NCBI RefSeq assembly: GCF_965196625.1 | Contig: NZ_OZ239769.1 | Span: 1,080,001 to 1,112,000, forward strand | Source: Candidatus Saccharimonadota bacterium | GTDB taxonomy: Bacteria; Bacteroidota; Bacteroidia; Cytophagales; Amoebophilaceae | DNA: 32,000 bases | Direction of reading: 5' to 3' | In this document: positions 29,936-31,994 of the stretch, piece after piece | How positions within the stretch are numbered: the first letter of the stretch is position 1 | Layout: every line of letters begins with the position of its first letter | Translations under genes and position numbers: made by a program | The notes under the pieces: generated by a model | The model's database searches: none | Seen by the model: the letters and a program-made list of their open reading frames with translations, nothing else | Told to the model about the DNA's origin: nothing

Positions 29936-31994
29936 GGCACATCTGCAATACCTCTTGAGCAGCCATTTCCAGTGCCTCTACTATATCGCTATCTAAGTAT
30001 CTCTTTGCCAAACAAATATCTACGGTAAGGGTCTCCTTTGCCATATCTATTACCTGCACCTTATGGACATAACCATAGGCATGGCGCAAGTCATAGAGCC
30101 GTTCGGCCAATTTAATACAAAGCACAAAAAGTTGATCTTGGTTAACCACCTTATTGCGCTGATTATCCACATAAAGCCCAGATGGCTCTATCTCTGGGCG
30201 CTCTTCTATAGATACAATAGATTGTACAAAAGAAAAAATATCTAAGCTATAATTAGCCTTAATATATGAAAGAGGCAAGTCGGTATACACAACTAAATCA
30301 TACAACAAAGCAGCACAGATTGGTTCGGGAACGTAGGCTACCCAGTCTGCTACCAACCGCGCAATGCCTACCGCACGAACATAGAACAATTCCCCTGATG
30401 CATGCCGCCTAAAAGCATAACAACGCCTCAGCAACAAAAATATTTCATCCATCACACTGATACGCATATCACACATTTTGCAAACATAGTCACTAAATTT
30501 CATGAGCACTACCATGGAAGCATCCATTTCACTCTTGGTTACAAAACTATTGGAAGAAATTACATTAGAAATCAGCCCATCCCGAATGGCGGTCACATTA
30601 CAAGGCAATACCAATAGGACTGATTTTTGTTTAGGAGAGGGAAATTGCAAATAACCATAGTGGGCACGCACAATCCTTTCTATCGGCTGCTTCTGCACAT
30701 TGACCCAGTCTGCAATAACCTGGTTAAGTGCCCCTACAAGTTCTATTCCTTCTGTAATATCCTCATAATGGGTATGAATGGAAGGCAACGTGCCCAAAGG
30801 CGTATCTGCACTGCTCACGACCAAAGCAATAGCTGGAAAGGTTATTTGGGGAGGGCGTTGTTTTTTAACAGGGCCATATTTATAATACTTTAACCGAGTG
30901 GCATATAGTTGAATGCGTATAGATGTATCTTGATCTAGGTGCGCAACACGCAAAATAACCGTACCCAATAGATGCATTACCTGGCCCACATCACATACAA
31001 CTTTGCTACTCAAATCAACATTTTTTGCATCCACTATCAGCTTTGGAGCAGATTCAACGGAATCATTTAAAACAATTTCTAATTGCTGAATGAGTGCATC
31101 TAGCGCAATTTCAGTTGGCAGCAGGGGCAAATGCACTTTAGATGCAGCATGTTGCTTTAAAAAAATAGACCACGCAGCAAACTTATTGACAATAGTACCA
31201 AAGTCTTCCTTATACAGGGCATCATCCTCTAAAAATAAAGAAGACTCCATCACCTCTTCCACAACTTCCTTTAAAGCAATAGCATCTCTTTCCGAATAAC
31301 CCTCCGCAGCACGGAAATGCAAGTTATGAATCGTTTGTTTTAACCTTCGCTTATAGTGCTGCGCGCGTTTCAGTTTTGCTTTATTTTTTACGTAACGGTT
31401 ATGGGCTCTATAATCAGCTATTTGAATTTTAATGTAAATAATCATAGTGAAAATCAATACACTAAATCCAAATAAAGAGATCATATCATCCGTTAGTTCT
31501 ATCGGACCATCCGCAGCGCAAAAGACATAAATAATAGCCCATACCATAGCTACCAGCATGGCTATACCTAAGGGCAAGGGAAATACAGATAAGATTACAG
31601 ACAAATGTGCTAGAGATAGCTTTAATAAAAATGAATAATCAGATACACGCCACCAATGCCAAAGCAAATTGACAGGAAGACAAAATAGCGAACCCATAAG
31701 CCAAAATCGAGTAATTTCAGAAGATGGCACTTCTTTTTTGGAAAGAATCGCATAACCTATCAGCCAAACACCTGCAGCAAATTGGAGGGTATACCAATAA
31801 ATAAGACCTTTGCCTATATAACTTAATACAGCAGTAGTGATGAGCACATAAAAACCGGTATATCCTATTGCAATATTACTTGGTTTCAGTTTGACCAGCT
31901 TTTCTCTTACATAAGAAGATCTTATATAAGAAGACCGCAGTACAAAAAAGGAGATGGCCATAAGCGTAAGCAGCAAAGCTTGGAATGACAACAT
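29922..31994 (-). CDS. Multi-pass membrane protein with a degenerate GHKL/histidine-kinase-like domain and a C-terminal degenerate RelA/SpoT-type HD domain
   Basis: 690 aa. Residues 1-190 contain at least 5 hydrophobic helices. Residues ~285-470 have the layout of a histidine-kinase ATPase domain but lack the N, G1 and G2 boxes. Residues ~515-685 align motif by motif with the N-terminal HD domain of SpoT/RelA: 'SGELFYVRAVGIARLVAD', 'AALLYDLVVYTD', 'VLCIKLAERLYDLRHA', 'MAKETLTVDICLAKRYL'. The stop overlaps the next gene's start by 14 nt. Confidence 0.7.
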   Translation of the reverse strand: MLSFQALLLTLMAISFFVLRSSYIRSSYVREKLVKLKPSNIAIGYTGFYVLITTAVLSYIGKGLIYWYTLQFAAGVWLIGYAILSKKEVPSSEITRFWLMGSLFCLPVNLLWHWWRVSDYSFLLKLSLAHLSVILSVFPLPLGIAMLVAMVWAIIYVFCAADGPIELTDDMISLFGFSVLIFTMIIYIKIQIADYRAHNRYVKNKAKLKRAQHYKRRLKQTIHNLHFRAAEGYSERDAIALKEVVEEVMESSLFLEDDALYKEDFGTIVNKFAAWSIFLKQHAASKVHLPLLPTEIALDALIQQLEIVLNDSVESAPKLIVDAKNVDLSSKVVCDVGQVMHLLGTVILRVAHLDQDTSIRIQLYATRLKYYKYGPVKKQRPPQITFPAIALVVSSADTPLGTLPSIHTHYEDITEGIELVGALNQVIADWVNVQKQPIERIVRAHYGYLQFPSPKQKSVLLVLPCNVTAIRDGLISNVISSNSFVTKSEMDASMVVLMKFSDYVCKMCDMRISVMDEIFLLLRRCYAFRRHASGELFYVRAVGIARLVADWVAYVPEPICAALLYDLVVYTDLPLSYIKANYSLDIFSFVQSIVSIEERPEIEPSGLYVDNQRNKVVNQDQLFVLCIKLAERLYDLRHAYGYVHKVQVIDMAKETLTVDICLAKRYLDSDIVEALEMAAQEVLQMCLDKG

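What the first reader, a model, noticed from the sequence alone, without database searches (positions are those of the whole stretch)
29940..30452. Degenerate RelA/SpoT HD (pseudo-hydrolase) domain tethered to a membrane protein, with no synthetase domain
Residues ~515-685 match the (p)ppGpp hydrolase domain block by block, using the SpoT consensus from memory. 'RRHASGELFYVRAVGIARLVAD' corresponds to 'R.SGEPYI.HP..VA.ILAE'. 'ICAALLYDLVVYTD' (nt 30297-30314 encode AALLYD) corresponds to 'l.AALLHDv.EDT'. 'FVLCIKLAERLYDLRHA' corresponds to 'viLIKLADRLHNMRTL'. 'MAKETLTVDICLAKRYL' corresponds to 'iA.ETL.IYaPLA.RLG'. Every residue I associate with metal binding or catalysis is substituted: the His of 'HP' becomes Arg, HD becomes YD, ED becomes VY, DR becomes ER and HN becomes YD. 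The protein ends a few residues after this domain, so there is no synthetase, TGS or ACT region. A SpoT-like fold that cannot hydrolyse, fused to a transmembrane pseudo-kinase, could be an alarmone sensor or a protein-interaction module. I am not aware of this architecture being described.
Basis: partly seen in the sequence, partly recalled or inferred. Interest (0 to 1): 0.8.

Follow-up and report, generated by a model that had tools for sequence, protein, structure and literature searches.

The report
Membrane-anchored dead SpoT-type hydrolase, Cardinium
This insect-symbiont (Cardinium) membrane protein ends in a well-folded copy of the enzyme domain that normally destroys the bacterial starvation signal (p)ppGpp. 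Its catalytic residues were replaced once, long ago, and then kept by selection, so it is a conserved "pseudo-enzyme" from a large, previously noticed but uncharacterised gene family.

Summary
Window 29922-31994 (-) encodes a 690-aa protein whose residues ~487-688 are a true RelA/SpoT-type HD_4 domain. Support: Pfam 35.1 bits against a cut-off of 27.2; a domain model with pLDDT 89; TM 0.70-0.74 to Rel/SpoT hydrolase domains. All metal and catalytic residues are substituted (H→R540, HD→Y565-D566, ED→V569-Y570, D→E631, HN→Y634-D635), and there is no synthetase, TGS or ACT region.

Upstream lie 7 TM helices and a DHp+CA histidine-kinase-like module that lacks the H, N, G1 and G2 boxes.

It is not an orphan. 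It belongs to a Bacteroidota family with the architecture (SSF transporter)–6TM–pseudo-kinase–HD_4, whose other members mostly keep an intact hydrolase site. The dead-site clade is monophyletic and has about 4-13 copies per ~1.1-1.4 Mb Cardinium genome. Its HD-like domain is the most constrained part of the protein (dN/dS 0.16).

Other Cardinium genomes also encode a synthetase-only Rel remnant and intact-HD paralogues, so an alarmone circuit exists there.

The family was already noted as expanded "sodium/solute symporters" and "rickSpo", but I found no description of the pseudo-hydrolase state.

The likely role is a non-catalytic regulatory or ligand-binding module. Alarmone binding is untested, and the sequence evidence for it is mixed.

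The parts
29922..31994 (-). Whole ORF, 690 aa plus stop. Identical to NCBI 'HD domain-containing protein [Cardinium endosymbiont of Nabis limbatus]'.
   Evidence: P0001: 100% identity, 100% coverage, 690 aa
31920..31985 (-). N-terminal TM helix (residues 4-25), followed by a basic cytoplasmic linker (26-39, 'L.KL.PS' motif). The linker aligns with the linker that follows the SSF domain in long paralogues.
   Evidence: AF2 helices; positive-inside count; alignment A1
31422..31877 (-). Six-TM block (residues 40-191) with conserved CLP.N..WHWW and LSLAH motifs. It is shared with SSF-fused paralogues and canonical Bacteroidota SSF-histidine kinases.
31125..31421 (-). Juxtamembrane helix plus DHp-like helical hairpin (residues 192-290). 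No His is conserved across the family at the H-box.
   Evidence: Foldseek DHp-CA hits; MAFFT against SSF-HKs; hhalign 95.9%
30555..31124 (-). CA (HATPase_c)-like alpha/beta domain (residues 291-480). It lacks the N-box Asn, G1 DxGxG and G2 GxGxG. The 'AHYG' motif stands in place of 'AHGG'.
   Evidence: no Pfam HisKA or HATPase_c hit
29931..30536 (-). RelA/SpoT-type HD_4 fold, catalytically degenerate (residues 487-688; Pfam match 521-665).
30384..30407 (-). R530-H531-A532-S533-G534-E535-L536-F537, the counterpart of the 'RRSGEPY' nucleotide-binding motif. Compared with Rel_Tt: R43->H, R44->A, S45 and G46 kept, Y49->F.
30375..30377 (-). Codon CGT = R540. It replaces the first Mn2+-ligand His and is invariant in the degenerate clade.
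30285..30302 (-). Y565-D566-L-V-V569-Y570, replacing HDxxED. Y565 is invariant, D566 is relaxed (D/E/G/S) and the ED diad is lost.
30090..30113 (-). K628-L-A-E631-R632-L-Y634-D635, replacing KLADRLHN. K and R are kept; D->E, H->Y and N->D are invariant in the clade.

Best explanation
SHOWN.
- The ORF encodes a membrane-anchored protein with predicted topology 7 TM, N-out/C-in. Its cytoplasmic part is a degenerate histidine-kinase core (DHp+CA-like, no phospho-His, no ATP-binding boxes) followed by a SpoT/Rel-type HD_4 domain.
- It is the SSF-less short form of a Bacteroidota family: (SSF transporter)-6TM-pseudo-kinase-HD_4. Most other members, including the 3 HD copies found in the flanks of Cardinium loci (two fully intact, one partly degenerate), keep the full RSG..H..HD..ED..KxDR..HN hydrolase site.
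- In one monophyletic sub-clade (Cardinium plus some Amoebophilaceae MAGs) the metal and catalytic half of the pocket was remodelled once: R43->H, H->R, H->Y, ED lost, D->E, HN->YD.
- That new constellation has stayed invariant through a radiation to about 4-13 copies per genome. The HD-like domain is the most strongly constrained part of the protein.

INFERRED.
- The domain cannot carry out Mn2+-dependent (p)ppGpp hydrolysis. It is retained as a non-catalytic regulatory module.
- My preferred mechanism has internal probability of about 0.4. The remodelled pocket keeps K628, R632 and S533-G534 and gains R540 where the metal sat. It would bind a phosphorylated nucleotide ((p)ppGpp or a relative) without turning it over.
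- The DHp-like dimer would then transmit that state to the membrane part or to paralogous partners. This is analogous to LapD/FimX-type degenerate EAL receptors for c-di-GMP.
- This would act within a Cardinium alarmone circuit made of a synthetase-only Rel remnant plus membrane-tethered active hydrolase paralogues.
For: Domain identity and fold.

Substitutions. The same substitutions appear in all ~60 degenerate-type ORFs of 7 Cardinium genomes and in 26 non-redundant representatives, against 68 intact-site family representatives.

Nine 'switch' positions are conserved in both clades but with different residues, and most of them line the active site.

Purifying selection: the HD-like region has 83% mean aa identity and dN/dS 0.16 (0.086 for window vs L001). 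The TM, DHp-like and CA-like parts show 0.23-0.30.

Monophyly of the degenerate clade: 100/100 NJ bootstraps, nested inside the membrane-tethered intact family.

Pseudo-kinase: Foldseek hits to LvrB, RetS, CckA and HK853; hhalign 95.9%, E=5e-9 against canonical SSF-HisKA-HATPase_c proteins; H/N/G1/G2 boxes absent.

Family architecture.

Alarmone circuit in Cardinium:
- A 372-aa pseudoHD-SYNTH protein (Pfam RelA_SpoT 104 bits; E=9e-33 to S. aureus Rel NTD; DxxxIRI and EIQIRT motifs kept) at L036:17873-18991, also present in L035 and L038.
- Intact-HD paralogues at L010:12093-14816 and L022:12438-15887.

Retained 5'-phosphate-side residues K628, R632, S533 and G534.
Against: - No binding or activity data exist.
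- Most residues that contact the guanine and ribose of ppGpp in Rel_Tt (10.1101/670703) are changed: R43->H531, R44->A532, Y49->F537, N150->D635, T153->H638.
- Two acidic residues (E631, D635) remain without a metal. Canonical ppGpp binding is therefore doubtful.
- R540 could simply salt-bridge E631 and D635, plugging the former metal site for stability.
- I could not inspect model coordinates.
- I could not check whether the window's own genome (Nabis limbatus strain) carries the synthetase or an intact-HD paralogue. Those were seen only in the flanks of loci from other Cardinium strains.
- The window protein lacks the SSF domain, so there is no obvious cis-target to regulate.
- The NJ tree is a simple distance tree. 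The long stem could partly reflect the shared substitutions themselves.
Confidence: 0.5

Rival explanations
1. Ligand-independent scaffold or partner. The pseudo-HD pocket is self-plugged (R540 replaces Mn2+ and pairs with E631 and D635). The protein works only through protein contacts. For example, it could pair through its DHp-like helices and 6-TM block with SSF-fused or catalytically active paralogues and modulate their transport or hydrolase activity, as the pseudo-kinase RetS does with GacS.
For: - The DHp-like dimerisation module is conserved, and RetS is among the best Foldseek hits.
- Most ppGpp base contacts are lost.
- The window protein has no SSF domain of its own.
- Intact and degenerate copies lie tail-to-tail in L010 and L022.
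Against: - The intact/degenerate adjacency is not conserved in the other genomes.
- 4-13 paralogues per genome, many with their own complete SSF domain, are more than a simple dominant-negative partner would need.
- The residues that are newly invariant line the old substrate pocket rather than an obvious surface.
Confidence: 0.3
2. Still an enzyme. The Y/D/E/Y/D constellation binds a different metal or uses a different mechanism, and the domain hydrolyses (p)ppGpp or another phosphorylated nucleotide (compare MESH1 acting on NADPH).
For: - Carboxylates E631 and D635 and (often) D566, plus tyrosines, could in principle ligate a hard metal.
- The pocket is strongly conserved.
- The HD_4 fold is known to accept NADPH and PAPS in MESH1 (PDB 5vxa and 9chy among the hits).
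Against: - Both His ligands are gone, and the ED diad that activates water is not conserved at all (V/I/R/C/H... and Y/H/R...).
- D566 is relaxed to G/S/E in many paralogues.
- Conservative E80Q, D81N and D81E changes already abolish activity in Rel_Tt (10.1101/670703).
- The general HD profile PF01966 matches the intact paralogues but not this protein.
Confidence: 0.07
3. Decaying remnant. The gene, or its C-terminal domain, is a pseudogene-like relic in a degrading endosymbiont genome, and the substitutions are neutral decay.
For: - Cardinium genomes carry many fragments and IS-truncated copies of this family: L044 and L045 are flanked by transposases and L039 is frameshifted (PMC12039267).
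Against: - The ORF is full length and has orthologues of 650-700 aa in 6 of the 7 GTDB Cardinium genomes scanned (not Tipula unca), at 67-75% identity in that scan; a further strain, CP101107.1, is 79% identical.
- dN/dS is 0.16 in the HD-like domain, the lowest of all regions.
- The substituted residues are invariant across paralogues that are only ~35% identical.
- The model is confident (pLDDT 89).
Confidence: 0.03

Closest known systems
RelA/SpoT-homologue (RSH) hydrolase domain, Pfam HD_4 PF13328: Rel/SpoT N-terminal domain and small alarmone hydrolases (MESH1, PaSAH, RelH). Atkinson et al. 2011 placed the Amoebophilus copies in 'rickSpo'.
   Same: Homologous by profile (35 bits, above the cut-off) and by fold (TMq 0.70-0.74). 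It has the same helix order and conserved blocks (R.SGE.., ..LL.D.., .KLA.RL...R, A.ETL).
   Different: All Mn2+ ligands and the ED diad are replaced. The domain sits at the C-terminus of a polytopic membrane protein rather than being soluble or N-terminal to a synthetase. Membership of the 'rickSpo' subgroup itself could not be tested, because no subgroup HMM was available.
[quoted passage not shown]
   Same: An RSH HD fold that has lost HDx3ED (FPLADA in RelA) yet is retained and conserved as a non-catalytic, regulatory part of an alarmone protein. RelA structures are among the fold hits (5iqr TMq 0.66).
   Different: RelA's pseudo-HD is fused to an active synthetase plus TGS/ACT and works on the ribosome. 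Here there is no synthetase, the partner domains are a pseudo-kinase and TM helices, and the replacement residues are different and clade-specific.
SLC5(SSF)/STAC sensor histidine kinases (CbrA, CrbS, RpuS) and Bacteroidota SSF-xTM-HisKA-HATPase_c kinases (P0230-P0232)
   Same: The long paralogues share the N-terminal SSF domain, additional TM helices and a homologous DHp+CA core (hhalign 95.9%). The logic of a transporter-like sensor coupled to a cytoplasmic output is shared.
   Different: The kinase core has no phospho-acceptor His and no ATP-binding boxes in the whole family. The output is an HD_4 domain rather than phosphotransfer. No STAC, PAS or REC domains were detected by Pfam. The window protein has lost the SSF domain altogether.
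Degenerate EAL/GGDEF receptors of c-di-GMP (LapD, FimX, PelD). This is a functional analogy only, from my own knowledge.
   Same: A second-messenger hydrolase or cyclase fold that lost catalysis and is kept as a receptor or transducer. In LapD it is tethered to the membrane and dimeric.
   Different: The fold and the messenger are unrelated. Ligand binding is demonstrated for those proteins and is entirely untested here.

Membership tests
RSH hydrolase domain (Pfam HD_4, PF13328) | Significant match to the family profile | tested here: met
   35.1 bits, E=1.3e-8, GA 27.2, residues 521-665 covering profile positions 4-152 of 156. Intact paralogues score 80-105 bits and canonical Rel 163-171 bits.
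RSH hydrolase domain (Pfam HD_4, PF13328) | All-helical HD fold superposable on Rel/SpoT/SAH structures | tested here: met
   Domain model has pLDDT 89.3 and pTM 0.87. Foldseek: 8acu_A TMq 0.70, 1vj7_B 0.72, 6s2v_C 0.74, SAH 7p1y TMt 0.75. Every match up to E ~0.2 is an RSH or SAH-type hydrolase domain; weak hits to other HD-superfamily enzymes (PDE5A, PDE4D2, YpgQ) appear only above that.
RSH hydrolase domain (Pfam HD_4, PF13328) | Mn2+ ligands H...HD...D | tested here: not met
   R540, Y565-D566 and E631 in alignments to 8acu, 6yxa and 1vj7. The same holds in all clade members, with D566 relaxed.
RSH hydrolase domain (Pfam HD_4, PF13328) | Catalytic ED diad of HDx3ED, and N150 of HN | tested here: not met
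   V569-Y570, variable across paralogues. HN -> Y634-D635.
RSH hydrolase domain (Pfam HD_4, PF13328) | (p)ppGpp 3'-pyrophosphohydrolase activity | not testable with these tools
   Needs a biochemical assay.
Long RSH (Rel/SpoT/RelA; TIGR00691) | Synthetase (PF04607), TGS and ACT domains after the HD domain | tested here: not met
   No such Pfam hits. The protein ends at residue 690, 2 residues after the last HD helix. TIGR00691 scores 33.5 bits against a cut-off of 499.2, matching model positions 14-148 only.
Sensor histidine kinase (HisKA + HATPase_c) | DHp + CA core homologous to kinases | tested here: met
   hhalign of the family mid-region against SSF-HKs P0230-232: probability 95.9%, E=5e-9, 217 columns. 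Foldseek hits to LvrB, RetS, CckA, ZraS and HK853 at E~1e-4.
Sensor histidine kinase (HisKA + HATPase_c) | Conserved phospho-acceptor His (H-box) and the N, G1 and G2 ATP-binding boxes | tested here: not met
   No His is conserved across the family at the H-box. The N-box Asn, DxGxG and GxGxG are absent in both degenerate-HD and intact-HD members. There is no Pfam HisKA or HATPase_c hit at E<=0.01-1. hhalign places H of 'IHNLH' opposite the H-box His in the orthologue group only, and that His is absent in paralogues.
SLC5(SSF)/STAC histidine kinases | N-terminal SSF/SLC5 transporter-like domain | tested here: not met
   No SSF hit in the window protein. In strain CP101107.1 the upstream neighbour is a divergently transcribed DAP epimerase gene, with no SSF gene called. 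The feature is met in the long paralogues (PF00474).
SLC5(SSF)/STAC histidine kinases | STAC linker domain and a phosphorelay partner | tested here: inconclusive
   Pfam scans of the window protein and 7 family members list only SSF, HD_4 and HD. I did not verify whether a STAC model is present in the library, and no response-regulator partner was looked for.
'rickSpo' SAH subgroup (Atkinson et al. 2011) | Match to the subgroup HMM / placement in the subgroup clade with Rickettsiales hydrolases | not testable with these tools
   Only the paper's statement that Amoebophilus carries a rickSpo expansion is available (PMC3153485). No subgroup model or Rickettsia sequences were compared here.

The most novel reading that the evidence does not exclude
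The remodelled, metal-free pocket (H531, R540, Y565, E631, Y634, D635 plus the retained K628, R632 and S533-G534) would be a dedicated receptor site for (p)ppGpp or another phosphorylated nucleotide.

If so, the Cardinium/Amoebophilaceae clade would be the first family of alarmone receptors derived from the RSH hydrolase domain itself. These would be LapD-like membrane transducers that couple the symbiont's starvation signal to SSF-type nutrient uptake or sensing. The clade has multiplied to roughly 4-13 copies in a ~1 Mb genome whose Rel has been reduced to a synthetase-only stump.

A corollary concerns the intact-site parent family in free-living Bacteroidota: it would be a solute-gated (p)ppGpp hydrolase, a nutrient input to the stringent response that has not been described.
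Probability: 0.2. Interest if true: 0.8.

Novelty: new variant of a known kind. Interest (0 to 1): 0.5.

Why it matters
(p)ppGpp signalling is understood mainly through soluble, ribosome-associated Rel/RelA/SpoT enzymes and small single-domain enzymes. The results here point to two things.

1. A sizeable, uncharacterised Bacteroidota family puts a SpoT-type hydrolase at the end of a transporter-like membrane sensor, linked by a dead histidine-kinase scaffold. This could be a direct route from nutrient availability to alarmone degradation.

2. In the Cardinium lineage of insect and mite reproductive manipulators, one branch of that family lost catalysis once. It was then conserved and amplified, and it makes up roughly 1% of the genes of a ~1 Mb genome.

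Retained, selected pseudo-enzymes usually mark regulatory nodes. Published genome and transcriptome papers currently treat these genes as 'sodium/solute symporters of unknown substrate' or as repeat or MITE-like elements. Recognising the pseudo-kinase/pseudo-hydrolase tail changes how they should be read and gives concrete, cheap experiments.

It is not a categorically new system. The domain, the pseudo-HD precedent (RelA) and the gene-family expansion were all known.

Tried and rejected
1. Does Cardinium have a Rel?
- I used the best canonical Rel hit of the profile (P0149) as a query. It turned out to be Clostridia-like, and the 120 listed hits said nothing about Cardinium.
- The question was answered only partly and by luck. 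A tblastn of Rel against the 10-kb flanks of the fetched Cardinium loci found a synthetase-only remnant and intact-HD paralogues.
- The window's own genome could not be searched.

2. The look-up of encoding contigs for the exact window protein and for P0006: not on record.

3. Supplementary RSH tables of Jimmy et al. 2020: not held.

5. Operon partner. The downstream HExxH lipoprotein gene overlaps the stop codon by 14 nt, but it has no homologue at any other Cardinium locus fetched. I rejected it as part of the system.

6. Stand-alone pseudo-HD proteins. The short HD-only ORFs in L044 and L045 are flanked by transposase genes and are best read as IS-truncated fragments.

7. Conserved pairing of intact and degenerate copies: seen in L010 and L022 only, not in the other genomes.

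8. Promoter and terminator scan of 28400-32000: at chance level. Rfam on the window: nothing.

9. A second family member in the window: none.

10. N-terminal truncation by the window edge: rejected. The NCBI protein has the same 690 aa, and the orthologue in strain CP101107.1 has a divergently transcribed DAP epimerase gene upstream, with no SSF gene called there.
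Full report
**1. What is at the coordinates**

- The finding (29940-30452) lies inside a single ORF on the minus strand, 29922-31994, of 690 aa. Its coordinates correspond to residues 515-685.
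- The exact protein is in NCBI as 'HD domain-containing protein [Cardinium endosymbiont of Nabis limbatus]', with the same length and start. The ORF is therefore not cut by the window edge.
- The organism is a Cardinium (Bacteroidota, Amoebophilaceae), a maternally inherited arthropod symbiont.
- The rest of the window is ordinary Cardinium chromosome: aminoacyl-tRNA synthetases, UvrA, LpxB, PPDK, two DUF1703 ATPase/nuclease paralogues and a UCH-type ubiquitin hydrolase.

**2.

- Pfam HD_4 (PF13328) matches residues 521-665 at 35.1 bits (gathering cut-off 27.2, E=1.3e-8), covering almost the whole profile.
- TIGR00691 matches only its hydrolase segment, at 33.5 bits against a cut-off of 499.
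- phmmer against PDB sequences finds B. subtilis Rel, RelSeq, S. aureus Rel and MESH1.
  - first metal-ligand His -> R540
  - HD -> Y565-D566
  - ED -> V569-Y570
  - D of KLADR -> E631
  - HN -> Y634-D635
- A domain-only AlphaFold model built on 53 homologues is confident (pLDDT 89.3, pTM 0.87). In the PDB it matches only RSH hydrolase domains at E <= 0.2 (TMq 0.70-0.74 to 8acu, 1vj7 and 6s2v). These include E. coli RelA's pseudo-hydrolase and several small alarmone hydrolases. Only above that E-value do weak hits to other HD-superfamily enzymes appear.
- The general HD profile PF01966, which keys on H..HD..D, matches intact relatives but not this protein.
- There is no synthetase, TGS or ACT region.

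**3. The rest of the protein**

- The full-length model (pLDDT 68) has seven hydrophobic helices in residues 4-191. The positive-inside rule gives N-out/C-in.
- Residues ~192-480 form a long helix, a helical hairpin and an alpha/beta sandwich.
- Foldseek places this region on DHp-CA cores of histidine kinases: LvrB, RetS, CckA, ZraS, HK853 and plant phytochrome kinase-like modules.
- A profile of the family's middle region aligns to canonical SSF-HisKA-HATPase_c kinases with hhalign probability 95.9% and E=5e-9 over 217 columns.
- In that alignment, and in a MAFFT alignment, four motifs are missing in every family member: the H-box histidine (as a conserved residue), the N-box Asn, G1 DxGxG and G2 GxGxG. 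Only 'AHYG' survives, in place of 'AHGG'.
- No Pfam kinase model matches. 'Transmembrane pseudo-kinase' is therefore a fair description.

**4. It belongs to a family, and that changes the reading**

- A word-indexed search found only 18 relatives, all from Cardinium. Three are ~1,180-1,200-aa proteins with an N-terminal sodium:solute symporter (SSF) domain.
- An exhaustive profile search of 1.84 billion cluster representatives found 429 hits, of which 128 had E<=1e-10. Many are ~1,150 aa long.
- Pfam confirms the architecture SSF(1-420) ... HD_4(C-terminus) in both close and distant members.
- Tabulating the catalytic positions across the 150 best hits splits them cleanly:
  - About 45 top hits (Cardinium, one Amoebophilaceae MAG and unnamed metagenome proteins) carry R / Y[DEGS] / xx / KER / YD.
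  - Most of the more distant members carry the complete canonical RSG-H-LHD-ED-KDR-HNT set, with HD_4 scores of 90-105 bits.
- Named examples of the intact group come from Bacteroidota MAGs, Roseivirga sp. and an Amoebophilaceae MAG. They are annotated 'Na+/proline symporter' or 'HD domain-containing protein'.
- The tail of that search reaches canonical SSF-histidine kinases (P0230-P0232). This fits descent of the whole family from Bacteroidota SSF-xTM-kinases.

**5. The degenerate clade in Cardinium**

- A scan of one genome per GTDB species, using patterns from the degenerate clade, returned 48 loci, all in seven Cardinium genomes.
- Translating all ORFs in these loci gives 4-13 family ORFs per genome. 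They comprise:
  - one orthologue of the window protein (67-75% identity) in six of the seven genomes; none in the Tipula unca strain
  - two further short forms
  - several SSF-fused long forms (35-38% identity)
  - fragments, some IS-truncated or frameshifted
- In every degenerate copy, RHSG, R540, L-Y565, K-E631-R and Y/H634-D635 are kept. D566 drifts (D/E/G/S) and the former ED positions vary freely. This is what one expects if metal binding and catalysis are gone but the pocket still matters.
- Comparing 26 non-redundant degenerate with 68 intact representatives gives nine 'switch' positions, conserved in both groups but with different residues: 531 R>H, 536 P>L, 540 H>R, 544 V>I, 565 H>Y, 582 F>Y, 631 D>E, 634 H>Y, 635 N>D. 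K628, R632, G534, Y538 and E654 are shared.
- A neighbour-joining tree of the HD domain recovers the degenerate clade as monophyletic in 100/100 bootstraps. It sits on a long stem, nested within the membrane-tethered intact family. This is a simple distance tree and should be repeated with ML.

**6. Selection**

- I compared eight orthologues (window plus L001, L003-L008).
- The HD-like domain is the best conserved region: mean aa identity 0.83, against 0.66-0.73 elsewhere.
- It also has the lowest Nei-Gojobori dN/dS: 0.16 on average and 0.086 for window vs L001. The TM, DHp-like and CA-like parts give 0.23-0.30. dS is about 0.2-0.8, so it is not saturated.
- The domain is therefore not decaying.

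**7. Is there an alarmone system for it to belong to?**

- I could not search the window's own genome.
- By tblastn of a Rel protein against the flanks of the fetched loci, I found two kinds of gene in other Cardinium strains.
- (a) A 372-aa gene at L036:17873-18991, also present in L035 and L038:
  - strong RelA_SpoT synthetase domain (104 bits)
  - E=9e-33 to the S. aureus Rel N-terminal region
  - conserved D...IRI, YxSLH and EIQIRT...AHW.YK motifs
  - degenerate HD part
  - no TGS or ACT
- (b) Family members with an intact hydrolase site:
  - L010:12093-14816
  - L022:12438-15887
  - a partly degenerate copy, L032:7540-10908
- In those strains, Cardinium appears to run a split system: a synthetase-only Rel remnant, membrane-tethered hydrolases and a larger set of dead-site paralogues.
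- In L010 and L022 an intact copy lies tail-to-tail with a degenerate one. This arrangement is not conserved elsewhere.

**8. Mechanism: what is shown and what is inferred**

- Shown: the fold, the loss of the catalytic constellation, the single origin, purifying selection, the multi-copy family, and the pseudo-kinase scaffold.
- Inferred: the domain is non-catalytic and regulatory.
- For the specific mechanism I compared the pocket with the ppGpp contacts reported for T. thermophilus Rel: base stacked on R43/R44, H-bonds from S45, N150 and T153, ribose to Y49, and an acidic half of D77, E80, D81 and D146 (10.1101/670703).
  - Kept: S45 and G46, plus the K and R of KLADR.
  - Changed: R43>H531, R44>A532, Y49>F537, H52>R540, H76>Y565, E80/D81 lost, D146>E631, N150>D635, T153>H638.
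- Two readings fit this pattern.
  - A remodelled, metal-free nucleotide-binding site, with R540 supplying the positive charge that Mn2+ used to give.
  - A self-plugged pocket, in which R540 is salt-bridged to E631 and D635 and stabilises a domain that acts only through protein contacts.
- I favour the first slightly (about 0.4 against 0.3), for two reasons.
  - The newly frozen residues line the old substrate pocket.
  - Many independent paralogues, most with their own SSF domain, look more like parallel sensor or transporter units with a regulatory tail than like partners of one enzyme.
- The evidence does not decide between the two. Residual catalysis (about 0.07) and neutral decay (about 0.03) are unlikely.

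**9. Comparison with what is known**

- As a domain, it is a member of the RSH hydrolase (HD_4) family by sequence and fold. It fails the family's catalytic signature, so it should be called a pseudo-hydrolase.
- The nearest precedent is the pseudo-HD of E. coli RelA and of [hS]-type small RSHs.
- As an architecture, the family resembles SLC5/STAC sensor kinases (CbrA, CrbS), but with a dead kinase core and an HD_4 output.
- Functionally, the best analogy is degenerate EAL/GGDEF c-di-GMP receptors such as LapD. This analogy rests on my own knowledge and was not tested.
- The gene-family expansion is in the literature:
  - 14 'rickSpo' hydrolases plus one Rel in Amoebophilus (PMC3153485)
  - 18/7/3/2 'spoT ... 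sodium glucose cotransporter' homologues in Amoebophilus and three Cardinium strains (PMC6232779)
  - 19 and 12 'putative sodium/solute symporters', expressed, function unknown (PMC8831229)
  - 'SSS/HD domain-containing protein fragments' treated as MITE candidates (PMC12039267)
- In the papers I could search, I found no mention that most Cardinium copies have a dead hydrolase site, nor that the linker is a pseudo-kinase.

**10. Verdict**

It is too strong about the novelty of the architecture. It remains open on 'alarmone sensor'.
- It is a new variant of known kinds: a conserved, amplified, membrane-anchored pseudo-SpoT clade.
- Interest is moderate, with clear experiments available.

Noticed in passing
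window 28859-29935 (-): A 358-aa predicted lipoprotein (lipobox LIGC) with an HEFGH zinc-metallopeptidase motif and only weak M78/Mx1-type Pfam hits. Its TTG start overlaps the stop of the HD protein by 14 nt. The region has the lowest GC in the window (34%). There is no homologue at any of the 50 other Cardinium loci fetched, so it looks strain-specific.
   Followed up: partly
window 3237-5009 (+) and 22388-24166 (+): Two paralogous DUF1703 genes (AAA-ATPase_like PF09820 + PDDEXK_9 nuclease PF08011), 75% identical over 581 aa and 17 kb apart. This is the other gene family reported as expanded or MITE-like in Cardinium genomes (PMC6232779, PMC12039267).
   Followed up: partly
window 7609-8811 (-): A 400-aa protein with a eukaryote-type ubiquitin C-terminal hydrolase (UCH, PF00443) domain, probably a host-directed effector. 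Its 3' end overlaps the start of alaS (5012-7627) by 19 nt. No NCBIfam match.
   Followed up: partly
window 9046-11238 (-) and 16910-17872 (+): Two sizeable ORFs (730 aa and 320 aa) with no Pfam or NCBIfam match at all.
   Followed up: no
L036:17873-18991 (+); also L035 ~6195-7085 and L038 ~18251-19141: Cardinium (cBtQ1, cEhis1, cEina3) encodes a 372-aa Rel remnant: a degenerate HD part plus an apparently intact (p)ppGpp synthetase domain, with no TGS or ACT. That makes it a RelA-like [hS] enzyme with no ribosome-sensing C-terminus.
   Followed up: partly
L010:12093-14816 (-), L022:12438-15887 (-), L032:7540-10908 (-): Cardinium paralogues of the same family with an intact (L010, L022) or half-degenerate (L032: HD kept, ED->QN, DR->DV) hydrolase site. 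In L010 and L022 they lie tail-to-tail within 10-300 bp of a dead-site copy. L032 may be an intermediate state.
   Followed up: partly
P0064, P0072, P0094, P0171-P0216, P0210 (Roseivirga sp.) etc.: Bacteroidota, including the free-living genus Roseivirga, carry ~1,150-aa SSF-6TM-pseudo-kinase-HD_4 proteins with a complete SpoT-type catalytic site. They are annotated only as 'Na+/proline symporter' or 'HD domain-containing protein'. This is a candidate solute-gated (p)ppGpp hydrolase that I found no paper about.
   Followed up: partly
L044:9941-10681 and L045:10103-10576 (Cardinium of Tipula unca): HD-only C-terminal fragments of the family, flanked on both sides by transposase-like ORFs. They appear to be IS-truncated copies rather than stand-alone small proteins.
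   Followed up: partly
L015 and L016 (Cardinium of Tipula unca, contig positions ~600.3-602.3 kb and ~618.8-620.9 kb): Two copies of an SSF-fused degenerate paralogue with identical match statistics, about 16 kb apart in inverted orientation. This suggests a recent inverted duplication.
   Followed up: no
L039:8699-11773 and 11722-12108 (Cardinium cBtQ1): One SSF-fused copy is split into two overlapping ORFs within the HD-like domain. This is a probable frameshift pseudogene or a sequencing error.
   Followed up: no
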